Of a stretch of DNA of 58,855 nt, positions 37,639 through 55,677 are shown in pieces. The DNA is from Lobosporangium transversale (taxonomy: Eukaryota), in contig NW_019028981.1 of NCBI RefSeq assembly GCF_002105155.1, positions 1,674,001-1,732,855 of the forward strand, read 5' to 3'. The notes below the pieces were generated by a model. It made no database searches. It saw only the letters and a list, made by a program, of their open reading frames with translations, and had not been told where the DNA came from. Every line of letters begins with the position of its first letter. Position 1 is the stretch's first letter. The position numbers and the translations under genes are program-made.

Positions 37639-40600
37639 ATGTCTGATCCATCTCCACCTCCATCAACAGCGCCGCCTGTTCAGCGCACACGCGCCAGCTC
37701 TTATCACTCTGTACCCTTGTCCTACCAATCAACTAACCCATCTTCATCTTTCATCAACTCCATCTCATTGCTTGACCCTTCCACAAATGGCTCTCGAAGC
37801 ATCTCCGCCTCTCCGCAGAGGTGCTCCATGCCACTCCTACCTGCGCTCTCAACATCTATCCGTGCATCCTCATCCGCTTTAAACATGAAGCCAGCATCAC
37901 TTTCAGGAGCATCATTGTCAGCAGGAAGGAACTCTGTAGATATCAACTCACATGGTAGTCGCACAACTACCTCCGTAAAGTTCAATAGCTCAGAAATTGA
38001 GCGAAGTTTTCAGGCTTTGCTAAAGAAGCAACCTATTGCGGCTCCAGGGCCCTCATTACTGCACGGTAAAGGCCATCGACAGTCGTCTCAACACTCTGAA
38101 TCTCGTCTTGGCTCGAAACACCATGATAGGTTGTCTAGTAATAACGGCAGTAGCAACTTCGGCAGCAGTTTGTCACATTCTCCTGTGTTTGGATCACCAG
38201 CGTCTGAGCACGCCAAGAACTGGATCAAGACTGTGGGTCTGGATCAGCCTAGTGAATCGGATAGCGACCAGCGCGAGAGTGACGCTGACAACTGCGAAGA
38301 TAGTGAGCAACTTCGGTGGCAAACTGACCATGATGATGATACGGCAAATCAGGTCGAGCTTGAAACAGAAACAGAGGTTGCAAGGTTACCAATAAGTACA
38401 CGGCTATCCTTCAGCTCCAAAAAAGGATATCCTATGTTCAGTGAAACTGGTAGGACATTGTGAACTGTGCAATCGTGTCTACTATCTGCTTTATTATTAG
38501 ACTATCCAACTAATGAGCTTATTCTGTTCATCAGCTACATATCAGTCACCTGTTCGTGCCAAAGACCAGTCCGCTATACACCCACTTTCACCTATACCGC
38601 CTTCACCCCGTTCAGAAACATCTACACCAAAGCCGTCTCAATTAATGTCACCAAAAATGCGGCCTAGTGTGTTTGATTCTGGATCGATACCTCCAATAAC
38701 CTCTAAGACCGTCAACCAGCCTCTTCCGCCTCCTCCTGAACCCACCACAGCATTGCCTGACAGACCTCGTGCACGAACAAAGGTCACTCCTCATGTTCAG
38801 CCCCCAAAAAAGTCTTTCAAAAATAGTCCTTTGCCTCCGAAACCCGTATCTGTTACGGAAAGACAGCCTGTGTCCTTAAGCAATCCACCGCGCAAATGTA
38901 TACATCATGGCAAGATTTTGCAGGTTATCAACACATCAACAGTCAAGGATCGATACCTCTTCTTGTTTAGCGATATTCTATTGATTACCAAGCATATGTC
39001 AGAGGGTCACCCTACAATTGATAGTCGTTTTCAAGTTAAAGAAGTCATTGAATTGAAGAAGATTAGCCTCAGTCTCACTCGTGACAAATACGACTCCAAG
39101 AATGGGGAAGCTGGCCCTCATGGCAATCGCAAGATCCCTCCTATCCTTGCAGAGTTCATCCATACTTTTGATCAGGACCCAAATCGTGCCATTAAGAGCT
39201 TTATTCAAAAACGTGCTCTACATTCTGACCATATTTCTGTGGCACATCTCCTGTTTAAGACACCAGAGCTATCAAAGAGTCAGCTGGCTCTTTTCCTTTC
39301 TGATCCAGCGAATAAGCATGTCTACCGAGCGTTTCTGGATCAATGTCAATTTGCAGGAGTCTTGCTGGACGAGGCTCTTAGGACACTGCTAAGCCGGCTT
39401 AGCCTCCCAGACAGGGTGAGTGTGCCTCGTAGTGGAGGCTCTACGGATCGCTCTAATAGATGTGTGGGTTATTTGCTGGAGGAATTTACTAAACGCTGGT
39501 ATGAAGCGAACATCAACGTGGTTGTGTTTGATGCTTCGATTGCCCATAAGCTCGTCATTGCCATGATCGTACTCAATGCTCAGCTCCACAACAACGAAGG
39601 CGCTAGTCTCGTAAAAGATAGAGATGAGGTTGGAATACTTGTTCGACCTCGGGCAGATTCTCATCCTTCTACACCTACAGTAAATTCAACGCCAACAATG
39701 GACTCAAGTCTTGTTTCAACATCGCGAATAACGCAGAAATGCCAGTTAATGGACTTGGATGATCTTACGGTTTTTCCGAAGCCAACAAAAGATTCTTTTG
39801 TTGAGAACTTCCAGCTGCTAGACCAACAACGAATCGTCCCTCGGGACACCCTTCACAACATCTTTCTATCTATCAGCCATCAGCCTCTGGACATCGATTC
39901 TGAAAAATTGGATGATCATCCGGGGAACTCAAGCTCGATACCGTCGAGCTCGCGAAAGCTCTGGCCTATTATGATGTCACCTGTTGTCTTACCGCCAAGG
40001 TTGACACTCAAAGTTCCATCAGACTCTATTACTATTACCATACCGGTGTTAAACCCACATTTTTCAATTCATTTGGGAGGGAGAGACTTGAAATGTGAGC
40101 CCTCAATTCTCGAATTTGGGTCACATCGTAGTCAACAGTTTAGGATTATAGGTTCGGTGCCCGGGAAAAAAACCTTGACCATTCAACCAAAGATCACAGC
40201 GGAGAAAGGGACACCTGAACAGTACTATGACTTACATAATCTGCCGTCCAAGCATGTGATCGCAATTGAGCGTCAATTTATGCGACATACCTTCCAGATC
40301 TCATTGCTAAATGATCTAGGAACAAGACGACGTTACCTATTTGGAGCTTCTACGGGCGTTGAAAAAGACGAGTGGGCGAGAGCCTTGACAGAATGTCTGC
40401 TCCTCGTAAAAGGGCAAAACGCAGTACGATTGAATGAGCACACAGGGTTGGAGCAATCAATTGGGCTACAGATTTTAAGAGAACAACTGCTAGGCGTTGA
40501 GGTCCCTGAGGATGGTGACGTGGTACCAGTACCATCCAATGTACAATCCGGCCCACCACAAATGCCTGTAGCGGTCGTGCCACCGCAGACCATGGGCTTG

Positions 40601-41233
40601 GGAATCCCATTGGATGGTCATACTCTGCCAGTGACGTCTCCTCGGTCGGGTGGATCGAATACAGCAACAGTGACTATTAATGCAGGAACTTCCAGTCCCT
40701 CCCTCGGCGCGGGCATGAGTACAGACTGGGCAGGTGTACACAGCAACAGTATTTCTAATTCACCAAACGACACTTGGATGTGTAAGATGCCAAAGCCAGG
40801 ATCTGTCATCCCAGACAGATATGGCTGGGAGCTTGTCCATCTTGTGGAGCAAAATAGTTTAATGGCTCTTGTACTTGGATTTATGGGCGCATTAGGGCGC
40901 GATCGGCTTCGGCGTATAGAGGAGCTACGTAAGAAGATGGAAAAAGAAGAGGAAGAAGAGTGGGAGGAGGAGATAGTGGAGGTGGAAGATGATGAAGAAG
41001 AAGAAGAAGAAGAAGATCAGATACAAAGGGAAGAACAAGAAGGACAAGAAATAGATGAACGAGACATGGAAGAGGGTGAAAGATACGTCCCATCGTCTTC
41101 TATTAGTCATTATGAAAATTCTAACCAGAGAGCGACTACTGCCTCTATGGACGAAGATCTTGAAGACGGTGTTATCTCTGAAGCATTAGGGGATATGAGC
41201 AGTTTTAAAGGCGAGGGGATTTGGACTCAGTAA
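37639..41233 (+). CDS. Split-PH / Sec7-like domain protein with acidic tail (2 exons)
   Basis: Exons 37639-38449 and 38535-41233 join in frame. PH N-half KDRYLFLFSDILLITK; Sec7 helices LFKTPELSKSQLALFL and FAGVLLDEALRTLL; PH C-half RRYLFGASTGVEKDEWARAL. Confidence 0.8.
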
Positions 41234-41335: not shown

Positions 41336-41815
41336 TTAACGGTCCTCAGCCCATTCATTCTCCTTCTTAATCTGTGCTTCTTCCTCAGGCGTAAAATCGT
41401 TAACGATGTTGAAGGCCTTCCGGATTTGCTCGGGAGTTTTGCCTTTAATGATGTTAGCAACGGTTTTGCAACCAACATCAAGCAATGGCTTAATATCCAA
41501 GTAATTGGCAGCCAAAATTATCTCGAACAACATCTCCTGATCGACTTGCATAAACTTCATGTCCCACTCTTCGATATCGTTTGAACGCTTGCGGGGGTCG
41601 TCTGTCTCATCTGAAACTTGAATAGGATCGTTACGATGATGCTCGCAGTACTCGATGACTTTAGTTAACACTGCAGCCGTGACGTTAGGGAGAGGGATGG
41701 GTGCGTCGGACTCCCCGACATCCTCAAGCATGTTCTTGATCAAGATCGAACGTTCGGCCACCTCCTTGTCGATTTTGAACTCCTGGCCGTCAGAGGAAAC
41801 GAGAATCACAGACAT
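41336..41815 (-). CDS. SKP1: SCF adaptor Skp1, intronless, 159 aa
   Basis: [67 protein letters not shown]. Confidence 0.97.
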
Positions 41816-42027
41816 GATGGCAATTTTAAATATTTTGAAGAAAGAGATGAATATGCAATTTTTTATTTCGTGTGGCCACATGTCCAAAAAAAAAAAAAAA
41901 AAAAAAAAACACAGCCACATTTTATCTAAATCCGCCTTGTACAGCACCAAAAACTGTTCAGGTCATGTGTCACGTCTACAGAACAAAAAGTGATGGCCAG
42001 TGCATGGCATGGCACTTATTACGACCT

Positions 42028-45735: not shown

Positions 45736-48700
45736 ATGGCATCTTCCATGAGTAACCTTCTCGCTATTGATTTTAAACGGACAGAGCCACTCTCAATGAC
45801 AAAGAGTCTTAGCGACTATATCTCCACATCCTATGCGGAGCATCCAGATATCTACCAGGATGACTTTCGTGTCCTTGATGAGCTTAGAGCTGATATCGTC
45901 AACCTTGAGCCTCACCTTAATGCTCTCAACCGCCTGTTAAAGTGGGTCTTATGCTGCTCGATTCATCTACATCTTTAATTATAATCAACAACAGCTTAGC
46001 ATTGACGCTATTTTTGCTTTACTATGTCGCAATAGGTACCATGCACAGCTTGTGTTTATCAGTTCCAAATTTCCTATTGATGTGAGTTATAAACTATTAA
46101 TCCTCTTGATGAGTGGCCACATTTTCAATTATAGGTCAATTGACCTGCTTATCAATAAATTATCGTGATGTTTTTAGACAGGTGTTGAATTCTCCTGGGC
46201 ACTCGTCAACAGTACCGACAAAAAGATGTGTAAGGAGAAGCCGGTTCTTTACAAAAAAGTAAATGTATTGCGTTCAGTAGACGATACAAAGTAGTGCCTA
46301 GAATCTTACAGTTCTTGTCCAATGCACCTATCTGGAATTACAGACTCCTTCAGAAACATGTATTACGAACGAGCATGCATTTGCTTCAACATCGGGGCTA
46401 TGTATAGTCAGCTCGGCAACAATGAGAATAGAAGCACAGTCGAAGGACTAAAGCGTGCTTGTTCCTATTTCCAAGTACGATACGGGGTTCCCGTCGAGAA
46501 ATTTCGAGCGTTACTATCTGTTGATCTTCCTGTCAATACAACGATAACGTATTTATTTTTTTATTTTTTATTTTTATTCTTTTTTAGAATTCCGCAGGAA
46601 CATTTCAACATTTACGGGATACGATTATTCCAGAACTGAGGATTGCTCCAACTGTCGATATCTCCACAGCCTCCCTGACAGTTTATATCCAACTTATGCT
46701 TGCACAGGCACAAGAATGTTTCTGGCAGAAAGGCGCATTAGGTAAAACCTTTGGTCCAGTTGATGTTCTTCTAGTTGACCGCCAATCACCGGCCCATTAA
46801 ACTGTGGAGGCCTTTGCTACAACTTATATATATGTTTCATGAAGAATAGATCAGATTAAGGATGGGCTAATCGCTAAACTAGCAGCCAAAGTTGCTGATT
46901 ACTATACAGCAGCAAACGAAGGGGCAACCCATTCAAGTGTTTCCTCCCTATTCACTACACCATGGACAAGCCAAATGCAGGCCAAGGCTTTTCATTTTAA
47001 CGCTGTATCTCAGTACAGAAAGTCATGCGAATGCATATCTCAAAATAAATATGGCGAGGAAATTGCGCGACTTCAGATTGCTGAACGGCTTGTTAGCTCA
47101 GGACTCGATCTACAGAGGAACCTCAGGGAAACGGTCGTAAGCGATCTACGTTCGTTGCAATCCGCCATTCATCGTAACCTCTCGAGGGCAGAGAAAGATA
47201 ATGACATCATTTATTTGGAACCTATTCCTGCAGAGACCGCACTGGCGTCAATTGGGCGTGTGGATATGAGCAAGGCAACTATCATTCCAGAAATATCAAA
47301 CCCTGTTCCACTAATGAATGAGCATAATATATTGTTGGGTGTCCCATTGTTCTCGAGACTGGTTCCGTTTGCAGTCCATCAAGCAGCGAGTGTTTATACA
47401 GAGCGCAAGGAGAGGCTCGTGAAAGAAGACATTGGAGGAAAGTTTGATGAATTGACAGGTATTTTTTATAGGTATGTGAAGCGAAGATGCTAGACCTAGT
47501 CCTCATATTTGACAAGTTGGAGCAAAAGATAGATCTAATTGGTATATTCATTACTCAATTTTAGTCAAATGCAAGCGCTAAATCTGCCCGGAGCTCTTCA
47601 AGCACTTGAGCAGCCCATCGGATTGCCGCCCTCTCTTCTGTCCCATATTGATGAAATACATGCTGAAGGGGGTACCCGAACGCTAAATGAAATGGTTCAG
47701 ACTGTTCGGACTCTTTCACATCAAAATGCAGCCATATTAGATGAAATCTTTGGAGCATTACAGCAAGAAGCTGATGAAGACGAAGCAATGAGGCGAAAGT
47801 TCCAAGGACGTTGGAACCGCCCTACATCAGCGTCTCTGACAGTTAACCTCGTGGAACAGGGGAAGAGGTACAGAGACACCCTTGAAACTGCTAAAAAAAG
47901 CGATCAGATTGTTAGAAATAAAATGGAGGCGCTAATGACAACATGGGGGCGCTCATTGGAGCTGCTCGGCAGTGGTAGGGTGAGTATGCTTTTTTCCCGA
48001 CGTTTTCATTGTGAGCCAATCATCTGATTTATATTCACTTACACTTGCTATGGTTGCTGATGCATCACAATAGGTTGAAGTGGAACGCGCTGTGCCTAAT
48101 ACAATTAATGCGCCGGGCTCTTCAGATCCCGAAATTGTATACGACTTGAAGATGTTGTTAGAAGAGGCTGATCAGATGATCAAGGCGCGAAGGATTAAAT
48201 TAGATGAGGTCAAGAGGATTGCGGATGAGGACGATATAGGCCCATCTTTAGTGGCTATTACTAATAAGTTAACAGCCAACTCATCTGCAGTCAAAATTGA
48301 ACCTGCTCATTTTGAAGCGCATTTTCAGGAGCAACTCAAAAAGTACGACGGATATAAGGCGCTAGTTAAAGAGGAAACAGCTGCACAAGAGGATCTTTTG
48401 ATGGCTATCCAGGTATTAAACAATTGGCTATACATCATCGACAATCTCCAGAGATGGCGCTTTATTATATCTACTTATATCACATCTTTATTTTATTTTT
48501 ATTCTTATTTTTATTTTTATTTTGAATCATTAGGAAATAAATAAGGCTTTTGTCGCATCCAGAAAAAGTAGCCCAGTTGTACATCAACGAGAGAAAGCTC
48601 TTCAAAATCTGGAAGCAGCATATCAAAAGTATAAGGCAATACTGCTGAACCTCAAGGAAGGAATGCAGGTATTGATAATCATTATGTTGTATAGTATGTT

Positions 48701-49452
48701 CTCTCTACAAATTAATCTGCACTCAGTAATCAAGCTAAATTTCATTCCGTTGGCTATAGTTCCATCGCGATTTTGAAAAGATTTTAGTACGCCTGCGCGA
48801 TAACTGCCGCGATTATCTTCTCGCCCGCGAGATGGAAGCCAAAGATTATTTGAGGTAAACAAGAGCTTCTATTTTACACAAACGGTAACTTCAATCAAAG
48901 TAGGAGCAAGGTTTTTTTCGTTGTCCTGAATTGCCATTTCCTGTCAATGATAGTGAGGTGACCGCTGGAATATCATCCATCAATTTAAATCGCTCACAGC
49001 CGCAAAGCCCTGTGCACGGTTCTCCTTATGATGTAGCCAGCGCGCCTCCTCAATCCTATGATTTTCAACCTGGGTCCGGGAAGTGGAGTCCAAGTCTTGG
49101 TGTACATTTTGGTGGTCAAGCACCCACTTTACCCCCGGAAGTAACGCAGGGGCAAATCGGGTCGTTTAGTCATAACAGCGCTACATTCAGTCCCTATGAA
49201 GATGCACCGGTGGGTCCGCCATCTCAACCGCAGCCAAATTTTGCACAACATCTTCGGCAACAGTTTCAGCAAAAGCAGCCATCTTCCTTTCAAGGTACAT
49301 CATCACCACAACAACGGCAACAACAGCAGCAACAGCAACAGCAACAAGCTCCGCCGTCTTATCAATCCTTGCCCGGAAATAACAATGCTCCTACACCAGG
49401 CGTATGGGACCCTAGTAAAGGCTTGTTTTTCGGAGGAAAGCCCAAGAATTAA
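45736..49452 (+). CDS. RIM20: BRO1/V-domain protein Rim20/PalA (ALIX family)
   Basis: [11 protein letters not shown]...[73 protein letters not shown]; Pro/Gln-rich tail ending [12 protein letters not shown]. Confidence 0.9.
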
Positions 49453-49512: not shown

Positions 49513-50180
49513 TTACTCGTCGCTCAATATTTGTTGTCTAAGCCATGTGGTTTCTTCGACCACCCAGTCGTTGTTACTATGTGGTCCCTCTATAGCACTA
49601 ACTTCTTGAAATCCTTGATTTATCTTGAGGCTGGCCATTGAGTTGAGGTATTTGCCTGTATTAACATGCTGCAGCCAAAATACATCTTTCCATTGCAGAA
49701 AAGGCGAGAGTGGTTTCTTGATATCGGGCTCTGGTCGAGTGACGATCCAATCATTGTTACTGTCGTGGTATCGGTATCCAGTAACCTCGTTATGATCTTG
49801 GTGATTAAGAGATCGATGATTGTGCGAATGGAGATAGAGTGTAGTCGAAGGTGTAGTCTTGTAGATCATGGTATGATACTGGCAAAGCGATGGGGGATCG
49901 ATAAATTTCATTTTGTCTGCCTCGTCGATATCGTCAGGAGCAGTGATCTGAACAGAAGGCATACCATACGACACTTCAGATAATGCCAGACGAGATAGTG
50001 AATGTGAGCCACATGCGCATGGGTATGACATATCTTGCTCTATCTTGATCCATTTGACATTATGATCTAAATGATCTGAAGCTTGACGACATCTTAAGCA
50101 AAGATATGGTGGGGCCATACCATCTTGTGGAGGGTAGCAATCACTAATAGAAACAACATGGGAACAAAAGAGGGATAAGT

Positions 50181-50212
<32 letters not shown>

Positions 50213-52049
50213 TAGAAAGAGTAATAATTATTACTATCATTATTTCGGAAATAAAAAGTATTACCTGCAAATTGCAACCCATTCACCAGCACTCGCAGTA
50301 TAAAGGCATCTGTGAACGATGTTCGTTCCACCAGCCCGCTCGTGCCGCTCACAATGTGTAGCAAAGCGAAACGCGCTATTCTCACCACATCCACATCGCG
50401 TAGTTTCAAATCCAATCGAGGCATACAATCGCAGATAACTGTGGCCCTGATGGGCTTCTTTGATAAAACAAGACTCGCAAAATACTCTTCCAGGATCTGT
50501 CTGACATGTCTTTATAGTTGCATTAAACATTTTTTTTTTCTTAGTTAGTACCGATAGTGCTGTCAAAAGTTATAAAAAAAAGCCAGAACATACAACTAAT
50601 AAATTTTACATACCTTGCATTGGTAGTAGTGCATACCTTCCTTTATATCCGTAACACAAAGCACAGTCTGTCGATTATGATCGTCTTTGCAATCTGTACT
50701 ATTAATATTGGCTTGTGTAGGTGGCTGTCTTAGGATACTTGGGTCACCACAGTGACAGTATAGACCTTCATTATGCTTATTGATCCCTTCCTCAATCTCA
50801 TGGCCAATGTGGTCTTCAGATTTAAAGCAACGAGTACAAATCCATATGTCTGATGTTGCAGTAGGCAAGCTAGACTGATGTTCATCCTCTGAGTCATCCG
50901 TTGGGATCGAATCCAGCATTAAAGAAGGATTTGTGATGTGCTCGCTATCAACAACATGACAAGTTCGACAGCGCCACATACTCTCATGACGCTCAAAGAG
51001 ATAATTGCAATGACTGAGACTTGGAACAGGTCGGAATTCCTGTGGTAAATGATAGTTGCAGTCAAACGCAGTCTTAAACATGGTTGGATCACCACAATCG
51101 CATGATACATGATAAACTGCCTCATCTTGTAGCTCTTCCTCATTACTTTCATTATTCTCACTTTCTGGTAATTCTTGCTCCAGTGTCTCATCCGATGGGT
51201 AACAGGGCGAGTCTACAGTGTTCATGGTTATACCTATTTCAGCTTGTTCGCCTTCGGCAGGGACCTCGTGGGTTGACTCTTCAGCAGCGATCTCACGAGT
51301 CGACTCTTCAGCGGGGATCCCGCGAGTCAACTCAGAACTGGTCCTTGGTTTGACATCGGGCTGCTGGAAGACACCCATCCTCCAACGATGTTTCACGCAT
51401 CGTGAGTTGTGAAAGCATCGCCCACATAATACCACCATACTATTGAAACTGCAGTCTTTACAGTGATAGATATCTTCGCCAGGCTTGAATATATGTCCGC
51501 ATCGTTGTGATTCTAATGATGCTTTGGCTACTTCTGATACAGCTTTAGGTGGAAGTGAGGGTGAAGTCTGATCATCGGTGGTAGAGTGAACCAGAGCTGG
51601 AGAAGAGGGGGAAGACGATGATGAAGCAGCCTCTTGCTCAGGTGGTAAAGGTTTCCATGGTGATTTAGAAGGTGAAGGTAGCCTGATAGACCTTGGAAGA
51701 TATTCGCTCTCGAGAACACCAGGGCTATGGTATGCACAACGCAAATCGAATTTCCAGAACTTTCCATCACAGCAGCTGCAACTGGAGCCGTCTCTTGCAA
51801 GTTGAGCTATAAAATCATGGCCAAAGTGGTTGTGCTAAGGATATTGTACCACATATCGTAGAAAGAACCATAGATCAGAGCGTGTATTCAATCATTACGG
51901 AAAACTAAGCATAGGCTGTAAACAGGATCTAGGACTTACAGAGCGGAAACATCGAACGCAGAGTACCGCATCATCGTTGGCATTGGTAGCGCACGACTAT
52001 CACAAAGGGTTGAATAATGTCAATCAATATCATTCATCCATTCATTCAT

Positions 52050-52082
<33 letters not shown>

Positions 52083-55000
52083 TGCTTACCTTGCATCGAT
52101 ACACTTTTTCACCCGCCTTAAATTTGATCTGACATGGTTTGCCCTTTGTATGGCCTGAATAAGATTTTTGACTTTCCGCAGAGTGCAATGAACAGTGAAG
52201 CATCCGTCTCATTTTTAACCTGGAAGGATCGCTACAGACGCAGACAGATGTCCCCCAAGAGCACTGCAAGTACATCGTATGATCAGCATGATCCGAAGCT
52301 TGTTATTTCATCATTCAAATCGAATACATGTTAATAACAGCATCTTTGTTTTTTGAAGCATGTTTATCGAGTCATCAAAAAGTTAAGAGATATAAACGGC
52401 CCTACCTCGGAAACATCTCATGCAAAGAACATCAGCTGGGCAGGTCTTACAAATAACATAAGTTTCACCATATGGGACAATATGTCGACATGGGGCTCCT
52501 TGCGCTCGTGGTAGATACTCTGGCATTTCTATTTTAGTATTCCTAGTAGAAAACCAATATGAAATAATCCAGACACGGTCACCATATTTGACCTTCCAAT
52601 CTTTACGGGTGCGGATTATATCCTTTGCAGGGAGGATAATCCATTTTGAAGCAGTATACGTCTTGCTATCACAGGCAACTATACCAAGCAATTTGCCACG
52701 AAGCAAGCACATACCGTAAGTCGATTTTCAAGATGGAAAACAAAAACAAGAAAGTGAAATAGATAGCTGAGATATTGGTTTTCCTTAAAACATACCTACA
52801 TTCTGGCGAGATGATCCTTCGTGGGAATATAGCCAATTCCAGATCCAGGCATATTGCAATGTATTGGCATGTAGCATGTGAATTGTCCATCCGAACTGGA
52901 CGACTGTGCTATTGGCGTGCTCTTTTTGATCGCTTGACATTGAACCATCTACGTTGCCGGTACTGCTGGAAGACTCTATGCCAGCACTACCCAACTCTTT
53001 ATCTTGCCTAACAAACATACAAATAAACAAATATAAAAAACAGGAGAGAAATGGTAAAACTTCTACAAATTCATCATATAGAAGTCAGTATCATGACAAA
53101 GAAGACTTGAAGGCCCATAACTTACGAGTCTTTGTCATTGTCTTCCAATTTGGACCGCCTCTTAGCCATCATAATCTCAGCGATCTGTTGTTCAAGCTCT
53201 GTCGGAGCATGCTCATTCTGCTGTAGTGATTGTGCTGTCGCGCTTCTCGATATGCTAGTGCTAGTACTATTAATGTCCACATTTCCATTTACTGATGCTA
53301 AAGCCTGAATGCTGGTGCTCTTCCCGTTCAGTGTATCAGTTAAAACATCTGCGCTGCTTGCACTACCTGCCCCAGCAATATTACCAATGCTTCCATTCAT
53401 AAGGACGAGAGACTGACGTGTTGAAGAGGAGATAGAAGAACATCGCTTCAAATGAGATGAAAGAGTGACTGGAGATGTGGGTAAAGCTGAGTTTGGAGCA
53501 GTATTAGCAACCGATTGTAGGAAGATGACAGATTCAGCTTGTTGCATCTCATCCAAGTTTTCTAGAATAGAAAGGGCTTCCGCGCTAGGTATGCACGTCT
53601 CAAGATAGTTTCTGCGAACTTGATCAACGGCTTGTAAAAAGTCAGAATAGTCCTTGGGAGTGACACAGGAGGAAAAATGTATACAAGACAGTAAGTGTAA
53701 GCGTTGCATGCCATTTATAAATGGTTACGTTGGTGTGGTTGATATCTTCGAGAATGTGAATAGGATTGTTAATACCTTAATATCGGGTGAAGATCTCAGC
53801 GTTAGAGGTGACACTGTAGCTGAAGCTAAACTACTGCTATTTCGCTGATTGCCTAATAGACGGTTCTTGAATACTTGCCAATGTTCATCTAAAGTAACCA
53901 TATGATGGTTCTGCAGTGCCGAAGCATTTGCGTTATAATATTCCAGATAAAGCCCTCCTGTGGGAACCATCATCTCTAAAGCCGATGTTGCTCCAACAAG
54001 GTTTGCATCCGTTGCAGCTGCAGACTTTCCTGAAGCATGGTCTGTGATAGTGGTTTTGAGACAATGAGTCCGAAAATCACCAAGCAACTTGGGTAGGTAA
54101 TACTCGAAACCAAGATAATAGCGCCTTTCGATTTCTTCTAATGATCTAGATTGAGCATCGTGATGGAGCATTGCAAGAGTGTGCCAAGGTAATGGGATGG
54201 GTTGTCGGTCCAGATGCTCGTTCATGATACGGTGGTATGTATGTGCTCCATTGTATAATGCACGTTCACGAATGGCATCGCGTGCGGCTTGCTGCAGGTC
54301 GGACAGATTTAGTGGTGCTGAACATCCATTTAACTGAGTCAAGTATGTCTGGAGCTTGGCATAGAGTACAGCACCTAAATTAATATAATATTGAAATGGT
54401 TACAAGGATCTTCATCATAAACTCGAATATGATTTTTACTCTTTTGGATAACTCAAGGACATACCACTTGTAGCCTTCTGGCTCTCTGTTAAAGTGCTTT
54501 GATTATCCGGCCGCTGTTTGCTACGGCCCGTGAGCTCATGAAACCAGGAGCTGTCAATATGAGCCTCATTACTTTTTTTTGTGTCAGTCACTGTCAAATC
54601 CTTTAGATCTCGCATGAGGACAGCCTCGATTGATTGTTCGTTCATTTTAGATCGCCTTTTACGAATACTTCCTCCAGCCCTGTTATTAATCTTCGATGAC
54701 GCTGGTGAGGGACAACACTTGATGGACCTAAAAAACTGCTCGAGCACTGCAACTTGCGCTGCAATATCTTCGCTTTCAATAGACATTACGCCGGTGGACT
54801 TTCTAGCATCGCTGATATACATCTCGAGTGTAGCAGCTCCACGAGCATGTCCATGATCGCTCTTGGCTTTTGAATTTGATATTGCTCTATTAACAGGATC
54901 GCTCCAACGCCAATTCAGGCTTGGCAAGTCGAAAGGCGGGTAGTGACGTTGCGTCGTCTGCAATGTGAGTAACGACCGCGCTAGTCGGGCCAAATCCCCT

Positions 55001-55677
55001 TCGGTATCGTAGATCGTGGGCGATACAATGTTCAACTGGTTTGAGAAGAGGGCAAGTATAGGTTCAAGAATCCCATGGAGTGGAAATGAGAAAGCGCTGT
55101 TCTCCGTCGTACTATCATATAATGTATTAGGACTGATGCTGTTATCATGTCGGTATATTACGTAGAGTGTATGAACCGGGTGACTAGATGATACAGAATC
55201 CATTGTACTTGTTGGTGATGATAGCCAAGCCCAGATGCCACCACCGAGAAGCCTAATATCTGTTGTTGATGTTGTCGATGTTGTCTCCGTGTCATTGGTC
55301 TGTTCCTGTTCATTATTTGTATCGCTACTGTATGAATTTCTGATAACTGACGCAGATGCTGCTGCTGTTGCTGCTGCATCACATAGAGCATCCTGAATTG
55401 ATCTGTGATACGAAACTATTTAAATACATATACACATCAGAGTTAGTGTTATTGAGTCTTTGCATTACTACATTTAGTTTTATGCTTCATAAATATGAGA
55501 AAAAAGTCTGTTATTGGTGTGCCTACAGAATGACACAACAGTCAGAGGTTCAGCTAGGTTCTCGAGAATTGCTCGTGTAGCCTCAGGAATATCAAAGACC
55601 CACGGAGAAGAACTGGGTGAGGGAGTAGAAGGCACAGGAGAGCGTCGAATTTTAGCCAGTTGGAAGAATAGAGCCAT
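49513..55677 (-). CDS. Multidomain protein: GBP-like pseudo-GTPase + helical domain + MIR beta-trefoil with six inserted UBR-box zinc fingers (about 1691 aa)
   Basis: Eleven GT-AG exons: 55677-55527, 55415-54465, 54374-53776, 53652-53126, 53007-52796, 52678-52406, 52298-52090, 51996-51940, 51834-50614, 50509-50265, 50143-49513. Total 5076 nt and every junction phase is consistent. Confidence 0.82.

What the first reader, a model, noticed from the sequence alone, without database searches (positions are those of the whole stretch)
49530..52905. The six-UBR array appears inserted inside one MIR repeat, splitting the trefoil
MIR repeat 1 (VVQFGWTIHMLH...NVVAC...SKWII) and the start of repeat 2 (VKYGDRVWII) come before the UBR boxes. 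The rest of repeat 2 (LYLHSH...EVTGY..DSNNDWIV) and repeat 3 (LQWKDVFWLQHVNTGKYLNS...QEVSA...NNDWVVE) come after them. Several hundred residues of zinc fingers therefore sit in the loop between two strands, so the trefoil would close the array into a tethered loop (inference).
Basis: partly seen in the sequence, partly recalled or inferred. Interest (0 to 1): 0.75.

Follow-up and report, generated by a model that had tools for sequence, protein, structure and literature searches.

The report
Six zinc fingers split a trefoil
A spliced gene shared by Mortierella-family soil fungi encodes a protein in which about 725 residues holding six UBR zinc fingers interrupt a small MIR beta-trefoil domain whose two halves are predicted to fold back together, behind a GBP-like domain that lacks the GTP-binding motif and likely serves as a scaffold.

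Summary
Confirmed. The region is the 3' half of an 11-exon, minus-strand gene (49513-55677, 1691 aa). A spliced contig matches the model length exactly, and the protein is identical to Lobosporangium transversale XP_021885760.1. MIR strands 1-5 (aa 778-856) precede six UBR boxes (aa 877-1572; 66 of 66 zinc ligands kept in 8 complete homologues), and strands 6-12 follow. With the array removed in silico, the halves align as one trefoil (84.7 bits, positions 10-179 of 183). The two halves dock in a predicted complex (0.79 against best control 0.01) with trefoil strand pairings. AlphaFold2 of the intact region did not fold the trefoil, so closure within one chain is not shown. The insert sits in the beta5-beta6 turn, 6 residues long in 55 of 56 other MIR domains. 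New here: (1) aa 1-620 has a GBP/atlastin fold (Foldseek E 3e-11) but no P-loop; (2) six of seven linkers have fixed length, so the loop is probably two rigid arms with one hinge; (3) no E3 catalytic domain was found, and only box 3 keeps both pocket aspartates; (4) an uninterrupted Mortierella MIR protein is the best-scoring relative. Seen only in Mortierellaceae. Function is inferred.

The parts
49513..55677 (-). Whole gene, 11 exons (55527-55677, 54465-55415, 53776-54374, 53126-53652, 52796-53007, 52406-52678, 52090-52298, 51940-51996, 50614-51834, 50265-50509, 49513-50143), 1691 aa
   Evidence: identical to P0037 / XP_021885760.1
54697..55677 (-). GBP/atlastin-like G domain, aa 1 to ~290, without a G-x4-G-K-[ST] P-loop (predicted pseudo-GTPase)
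53500..54471 (-). GBP-like helical middle domain, aa ~366-618
   Evidence: alignments of about 600 columns to full-length GBP1/2/5
52551..52904 (-). MIR trefoil N-half, aa 778-856: repeat 1 (beta1-4; His pair replaced by W797/W799) and beta5 (RVWIIS)
52491..52550 (-). Fixed-length conserved linker from beta5 to UBR1 (aa 857-876, with EYLP motif)
52183..52490 (-). UBR box 1 (C877-H943)
51727..52134 (-). UBR box 2 (C960-H1029)
51502..51726 (-). The only variable-length linker between boxes (29-118 aa in 8 homologues); inferred hinge
51049..51501 (-). UBR box 3 (C1105-H1255), itself split by an acidic ~90-aa insert; the only box with both pocket aspartates (D1239, D1242)
   Evidence: (Z 9.3, rmsd 1.9, 71 aligned to the PRT6 UBR box)
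50677..51009 (-). UBR box 4 (C1269-H1379), with two variable inserts
50342..50658 (-). UBR box 5 (C1386-H1456)
49873..50308 (-). UBR box 6 (C1468-H1572), with a variable insert before its last Cys/His
49849..49872 (-). Conserved fixed-length return segment TMIYKTTP (aa 1573-1580) leading into beta6
49555..49848 (-). MIR trefoil C-half, aa 1581-1678: beta6-8 (LHSH His pair and DxNND kept) and repeat 3
   Evidence: (Pfam MIR E 1.6e-6)

Best explanation
Six tandem UBR zinc-finger boxes lie between the two complementary halves of one MIR beta-trefoil, the halves are predicted to fold back together as a clasp that closes the array, and the whole protein likely works as a non-enzymatic cytosolic scaffold. 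Shown by sequence: one spliced ORF; an N-terminal GBP-fold region without a P-loop; trefoil strands 1-5; six boxes with all zinc ligands; strands 6-12; no RING, HECT or F-box by Pfam; no signal or membrane stretch. Predicted: the halves pair as beta1-beta12, beta5-beta8 and beta5-beta6. Inferred: an intact Mortierella-type MIR domain took a UBR unit into its beta5-beta6 turn, and the unit multiplied in tandem. Boxes 1-2 and boxes 3-6 form two rigid arms rooted on the trefoil hairpin and joined by one flexible linker, giving a multivalent peptide- or protein-binding clamp. Box 3 is the likeliest N-terminal-amine binder. The surviving His-pair pocket (site beta) would need both halves. The GBP-like domain would supply docking or oligomerisation, not GTP hydrolysis. 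My odds: about 0.9 for the split-trefoil architecture, about 0.75 for closure within one chain, and about 0.45 for the scaffold or substrate-adaptor role.
For: Gene model. N-half is MIR-like: 16.5 bits against a shuffle maximum of 7.4 of 500; Atlas 0.93 to MIR clusters (the families are on only 12-14% of cluster members); Pfam Ins145_P3_rec on the N-half in 2 of 28 proteins scanned (E 0.018 and 5.4e-4). Excised join: 84.7 bits over positions 10-179 of 183, against 70-74 for the C-half alone, a maximum of 79.9 for 500 shuffled-N joins and 79.0 for the best non-overlapping window; it gains in 8 of 10 homologues and spans the full profile in 7 of 10. Complex: 0.79, 0.79, 0.78 against a best control of 0.01; runs agree in at least 67% of contacts; partner pLDDT at least 63. 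The tool's mark was reached by 51 of 78 solved and 2 of 108 mismatched microbial pairs, and by 39 of 65 against 2 of 126 eukaryotic pairs. The turn is 6 residues in 55 of 56 outside domains. Best outside match is an uninterrupted 208-aa Mortierella MIR protein (45.3 bits, colinear), the only one of 56 outside domains to share Ser at the usual beta5 His position. Zinc ligands 66 of 66 in 8 of 8 complete members, and six linkers fixed in 8 of 8. GBP fold: Foldseek E 2.8e-11 to 1f5n; Atlas 0.90. No G-x4-G-K-[ST] in 30 of 30 family proteins.
Against: AlphaFold2 of aa 771-1691 left both MIR halves at pLDDT under 50, with pTM 0.31 and no trefoil; its alignment held only 40 close relatives. The complex pass may come from likeness to solved MIR trefoils, and it cannot tell closure within a chain from assembly between chains. 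Two Linnemannia homologues (P0017, P0048) gain nothing on joining (33.2 against 36.0; 40.7 against 41.2). Pfam MIR never hit the N-half. An alternative join that uses TMIYK as beta5 scores about the same (86.3). Repeat 1 has Ala at the core Leu position (A796, 24 of 24). The tree placement beside the Mortierella MIR protein is weak (support 0.61 and 0.82). No call tests binding, localisation or loss of GTP binding.
Confidence: 0.65

Rival explanations
1. The trefoil forms between molecules: the N-half of one chain completes the C-half of another, giving domain-swapped dimers or head-to-tail chains of UBR arrays.
For: The halves were predicted to assemble as separate chains. They are about 725 residues apart, with a 29-118-aa variable linker in between. 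GBP-family proteins dimerise and polymerise (PMC9005921, passages).
Against: Fixed-length conserved linkers on both sides of the break (23 and 13 residues in 8 of 8) fit a defined local geometry, though they do not exclude a swap. No call shows oligomers.
Confidence: 0.15
2. The protein is an active N-recognin or E3 ubiquitin ligase of the UBR family, as UniRef names it, and the six boxes all read type-1 N-degrons.
For: Six complete UBR boxes; UniRef label 'E3 ubiquitin-protein ligase'; box 3 keeps the D150 and D153 equivalents (27 of 31 and 30 of 31).
Against: No RING, HECT, F-box, PHD or ClpS family at E up to 10 for P0037. Five of six boxes lack the D150 equivalent, and no box has all of D118/T120/F148/D150/D153 (pocket definition from PMC8346999, passages). 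An atypical module such as a hemiRING was not tested.
Confidence: 0.1
3. The halves are decaying remnants of two separate MIR domains that flank the array and do not form one trefoil.
For: AlphaFold2 gave no trefoil. Repeat 1 has lost LHSH and DxNN. TMIYK could be a duplicated beta5.
Against: The halves add up to exactly 12 strands without overlap and align colinearly to one intact MIR protein. Both are among the most conserved parts (0.82 and 0.80, against 0.28-0.42 for linkers and inserts). The predicted complex has trefoil pairings.
Confidence: 0.07
4. An assembly or gene-model artefact joined neighbouring genes.
For: Several genome annotations split the locus into 2-3 models, for example P0021 and P0036.
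Against: One spliced contig carries the whole open frame. Eight complete single-chain homologues from 5 genera and metagenome locus L001 keep the same order.
Confidence: 0.02

Closest known systems
MIR beta-trefoil of SDF2/SDF2L1 and of Pmt/POMT mannosyltransferases (PF02815)
   Same: Three repeats, 12 strands, three core Trp (W826, W1614, W1675 invariant); LHSH His pair and DxNN of repeat 2 kept, equivalent to site beta of Pmt2 (PMC7759382, passages).
   Different: Split by about 725 residues in the beta5-beta6 turn. Site alpha His pair replaced by Trp. No signal peptide or membrane segment by hydropathy (maximum 1.24), so likely cytosolic rather than in the ER lumen.
Stand-alone Mortierella MIR protein P0087 (KAF9348205.1, 208 aa)
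   Same: Best of 48 outside MIR proteins against the excised family profile (45.3 bits, colinear); shares loss of the repeat-1 His pair, Ser in beta5 and a DHxEVTGY strand.
   Different: Uninterrupted, with no UBR boxes or GBP domain. Sister placement in the tree is weakly supported.
UBR-box N-recognins and E3s (UBR1/2, yeast Ubr1, PRT6, UBR4, UBR5, UBR7, FBXO11)
   Same: Each box has the 11 Cys/His ligands of the three-zinc UBR fold; matches 3ny1, 5tda and 3nit by sequence and 6lhn by fold (Z 9.3).
   Different: Six boxes in one chain (that the known proteins carry one box each is recalled, not tested). No RING, HECT or F-box found. Type-1 pocket incomplete in all boxes and best kept in box 3.
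GBP / atlastin / RNF112 large GTPases (GB1/RHD3 type)
   Same: G-domain plus helical middle-domain fold (Foldseek E 2.8e-11 to GBP1, 7.8e-9 to atlastin-3).
   Different: No P-loop motif; G2-G4 positions diverged (GBP motif letters recalled). No CaaX or membrane anchor. Resembles a class-i pseudoGTPase in concept (PMC12490416, passages).
Inserted-domain (A1-B-A2) architectures in general
   Same: Insertions occur in about 20% of multidomain proteins (PMC13114784, passages).
   Different: There inserts are smaller than hosts in 77% of events (medians 115 and 199 aa). Here the insert is about four times the host (559-829 aa in 8 complete members). That paper's main text does not mention trefoil, MIR or UBR; its supplements were not seen.

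Membership tests
MIR beta-trefoil | Three colinear MIR motifs covering the 12-strand trefoil | tested here: met
   Excised join covers positions 10-179 of 183 of an own-built profile, 84.7 bits; full span in 7 of 10 homologues. Pfam PF02815 itself was not run on the excised form.
MIR beta-trefoil | Core Trp in each motif | tested here: met
   W826 28 of 28, W1614 26 of 26, W1675 26 of 26
MIR beta-trefoil | Core Leu in each motif | tested here: inconclusive
   L1586 26 of 26 and F/L1648, but A796 (24 of 24) at the repeat-1 position; flanking W797/I798 may fill the space
MIR beta-trefoil | Halves assemble into one barrel | tested here: inconclusive
   Two-chain prediction passes with trefoil pairings, 0.79 against 0.01; intact-chain AlphaFold2 gave no trefoil
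Pmt-type mannose-binding MIR | Site alpha: LH(S/T)H in beta2 plus DxNN | tested here: not met
   AWIW and TYTASKW in their place
Pmt-type mannose-binding MIR | Site beta: LH(S/T)H in beta6 plus DxNN | tested here: met
   H1587 26 of 26, H1589 21 of 24, D1609 22 of 26, N1612 26 of 26; ligand binding not tested
UBR box (PF02207) | Eleven Cys/His ligands for three zinc ions | tested here: met
   66 of 66 ligand positions in 8 of 8 complete members; Pfam 195.5 bits
Type-1 N-recognin | Pocket D118, T120, F148, D150, D153 (human UBR1 numbering) | tested here: not met
   No box has all five. D150 equivalent only in box 3; D118 equivalent in boxes 1 and 5; D/E153 equivalent in boxes 1-5. Positions were assigned by offset from the cysteines, not by structural superposition.
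UBR-family E3 ligase | RING, HECT, F-box or PHD module | tested here: not met
   None in Pfam scans at E up to 10; atypical modules such as hemiRING not tested
GBP/atlastin GTPase | G domain plus helical middle-domain fold | tested here: met
   Foldseek E 2.8e-11, probability 1.00; Atlas 0.90 with 173 shared features; weak sequence-profile hits, E 0.058-1.1
GBP/atlastin GTPase | P-loop G-x4-G-K-[ST] | tested here: not met
   Absent from 30 of 30 family proteins scanned; 14 alignment rows cover the expected position
GBP/atlastin GTPase | GTP binding and hydrolysis | not testable with these tools
   Needs an assay
GBP/atlastin GTPase | Membrane anchor (CaaX or transmembrane hairpin) | tested here: not met
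   C-terminus is ILSDE; maximum 19-residue hydropathy 1.24

The most novel reading that the evidence does not exclude
The protein is a new kind of fungal sensor: a dead GBP-fold scaffold displays a closed ring of six N-terminus readers. The split trefoil is the latch, so binding or cleavage in the array opens or swaps it, which switches the His-pair pocket at the seam or drives chain-to-chain polymerisation, possibly against the endobacteria these fungi carry (recalled; no call tests this).
Probability: 0.1. Interest if true: 0.85.

Novelty: new variant of a known kind. Interest (0 to 1): 0.6.

Why it matters
All three modules are known, but I found no description of this arrangement. It is a natural example of a ~180-residue beta-trefoil holding an insert about four times its size, kept across at least 12 fungal genera, which bears on how discontinuous domains fold and on trefoils as engineering scaffolds. 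It also adds a six-box UBR array without a detectable ligase module and a probable GBP-type pseudo-GTPase, both directly testable with purified fragments. In practice, the automatic 'E3 ubiquitin-protein ligase' label on these proteins is probably wrong.

Tried and rejected
AlphaFold2 on aa 771-1691 folded UBR boxes 2-6 but not box 1 or the MIR halves; I treat it as inconclusive. The wide fold search on that model listed no trefoil, which says nothing given the low confidence there. TMIYK as the true beta5: it scores as well in a profile join (86.3), but I rejected it because the complex places RVWII (847-851) against beta6 and beta8 and RVWIIS matches RIRLFS of the intact Mortierella MIR. Alternative splicing to an uninterrupted MIR: rejected, because both breakpoints lie inside exons (6 and 11) and skipping exons 7-10 shifts the frame. 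The DTEG at aa 187 is not the G3 motif: it lies elsewhere in the fold and is not conserved. Search for an intact-GBP or UBR-free paralogue with the N-terminal alignment: 12 hits, 11 family members or fragments and 1 ordinary UBR1-like protein; that search is word-limited, so this is weak evidence. Pfam gave no GBP hit in 28 proteins. No whole genome was held. No holder is on record as RNA. The VIA second look on the N-terminal model was not obtained. Earlier findings by sequence: none.
Full report
Gene. The finding lies on the minus strand, in the 3' half of a gene that I modelled with 11 exons (49513-55677); all 10 introns are GT-AG and the ORF is 1691 aa. One contig of run X5 (RNA is the tool's guess) shows 9 of the 10 introns as joints that are absent from the two DNA runs laid, and its length of 5298 nt equals the model's. 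The protein is identical to stored protein P0037, Lobosporangium transversale XP_021885760.1. Homologues were named from 12 of the 18 Mortierellaceae genera listed (Benniella only as a C-terminal fragment). No named family member came from outside that family. A search of 1.84 billion representatives with the C-half gave 12 family hits and then generic MIR proteins. Two metagenome loci carry the gene, and L001 shows the N-half, the boxes and the C-half in order.

The observation. All quoted motifs are present in order. Pfam finds MIR only in the C-half and zf-UBR in between. There are six boxes, each with 11 zinc ligands; all 66 positions are kept in 8 of 8 complete homologues. Other database models show fewer boxes, apparently because exons are skipped in the annotation. 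The boxes are 23-38% identical to each other. Boxes 2 and 5 share a phase-0 intron after C-K, and an E[YF][LR]P motif recurs before box 1 and after boxes 2 and 3; both fit tandem duplication (inference).

Is the N-half MIR? I built a 183-position profile from 56 domains of 48 non-family MIR proteins. These were found with the C-half, so the profile favours the C-half and not the N-half. The N-half alone scores 16.5 bits (500 shuffles: maximum 7.4), and the top 30 of 497 windows all overlap it. The ESM Atlas returns MIR and Ins145_P3_rec clusters for aa 774-860 (0.93; the families are on 12-14% of members). Pfam Ins145_P3_rec touches the N-half in 2 of 28 proteins. With aa 857-1580 left out, the halves align over positions 10-179 at 84.7 bits, against 70-74 for the C-half, at most 79.9 for shuffled-N joins and 79.0 for the best non-overlapping window. 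Joining raises the score in 8 of 10 homologues; the two Linnemannia proteins do not gain.

Do the halves assemble? As two chains, folded without an alignment, they score 0.79, 0.79 and 0.78 against a best control of 0.01. Runs agree in at least 67% of contacts and partner pLDDT is at least 63. The tool's mark was reached by 51 of 78 solved and 2 of 108 mismatched microbial pairs, and by 39 of 65 against 2 of 126 eukaryotic pairs. The surest contacts are 786-789 with 1674-1677 (beta1-beta12), 845-850 with 1613-1616 (beta5-beta8) and 850-851 with 1586 (beta5-beta6), which is trefoil topology. The pass may reflect likeness to solved MIR domains. Against this, AlphaFold2 of aa 771-1691 with 40 close relatives left both halves below pLDDT 50. 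Closure within one chain therefore remains inferred.

Where and how. The break is in the beta5-beta6 turn, which has 6 residues in 55 of 56 outside domains. The insert is 725 aa here and 559-829 aa in 8 complete members. [quoted passage not shown] The best outside match to the excised family profile is P0087, an uninterrupted 208-aa MIR protein of Mortierella sp. AD094 (45.3 bits, next 36.1). It is the only one of 56 outside domains that shares Ser at the beta5 His position. Tree support for a sister relation is weak (0.61 and 0.82). This points to insertion into an intact trefoil (inference). Linker lengths are identical in 8 of 8 members for beta5-box 1 (23), boxes 1-2 (16), 3-4 (13), 4-5 (6), 5-6 (11) and box 6-beta6 (13); only the link between boxes 2 and 3 varies (29-118). 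I read this as two rigid arms joined by one hinge. Boxes 3, 4 and 6 also carry variable inserts, and box 3 still superposes on the PRT6 UBR box across its insert (Z 9.3, rmsd 1.9, 71 residues).

The rest of the protein. The first ~620 aa fold with confidence and match GBP1/2/5, atlastins and RNF112 (Foldseek E 2.8e-11 to 1f5n). The Atlas (0.90) and weak profile hits agree. No G-x4-G-K-[ST] occurs in 30 family proteins, and the other G-motif positions look lost (GBP motif letters recalled; motif roles from PMC9005921, passages). It is therefore probably a pseudo-GTPase (concept: PMC12490416, passages). There is no signal, membrane or CaaX segment.

Ligand sites. Against the type-1 N-degron pocket D118/T120/F148/D150/D153 (PMC8346999, passages), no box is complete, and only box 3 has both the D150 and D153 equivalents. 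No RING, HECT, F-box or PHD was found. In the trefoil, the His pair and DxNN survive only in repeat 2. In Pmt2 that site lies at the repeat 1/repeat 2 interface (PMC7759382, passages), so by analogy it would need both halves.

Verdict. Best reading: a cytosolic, non-enzymatic, multivalent scaffold in which a split trefoil clasps a six-box array behind a dead GBP-fold domain. The architecture is well supported, closure within one chain is probable, and the function is inferred. Literature searches for UBR box with MIR domain, UBR box with Mortierella, and guanylate-binding protein with fungi and Mucoromycota gave 0 papers. Listings for GBP/atlastin in these fungi, trefoil insertion and multiple or tandem UBR showed nothing relevant by title and abstract start. 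Subscription papers and supplements were not searched or seen. Novelty: new variant of a known kind; interest 0.6.

Noticed in passing
window 45737-49452 (+): BRO1 plus ALIX V-domain gene (PalA/Rim20/Bro1-like; Pfam hits), convergent with the UBR gene; its stop lies only about 35 nt from the 3' end of the X5 contig (49487).
   Followed up: partly
window 41336-41962 (-): Skp1 gene (Pfam Skp1 and Skp1_POZ), about 7.5 kb from the UBR gene; linkage was not checked in other genomes.
   Followed up: no
window 38501-41233 (+): Large exon of a Sec7 plus PH protein (Arf GEF-like).
   Followed up: no
P0087 (KAF9348205.1): Stand-alone 208-aa Mortierella MIR protein annotated 'Protein O-mannosyl-transferase 2'; it has only the MIR domain and is the best uninterrupted relative of the split trefoil.
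   Followed up: partly
window 49516-49554 (-): The C-terminal tail ETTWLRQQILSDE after beta12 is strongly conserved (0.87); role unknown.
   Followed up: no
P0018 and P0072: Database models that fuse the MIR C-half to an RT-RNase H fragment (and LRRs in P0018), either a gene-model chimera or a retroelement insertion in the last exon.
   Followed up: no
P0116 (CAG8617391.1, Acaulospora morrowiae): Protein with what look like Kelch repeats, a membrane segment and three tandem MIR domains (read by eye).
   Followed up: no
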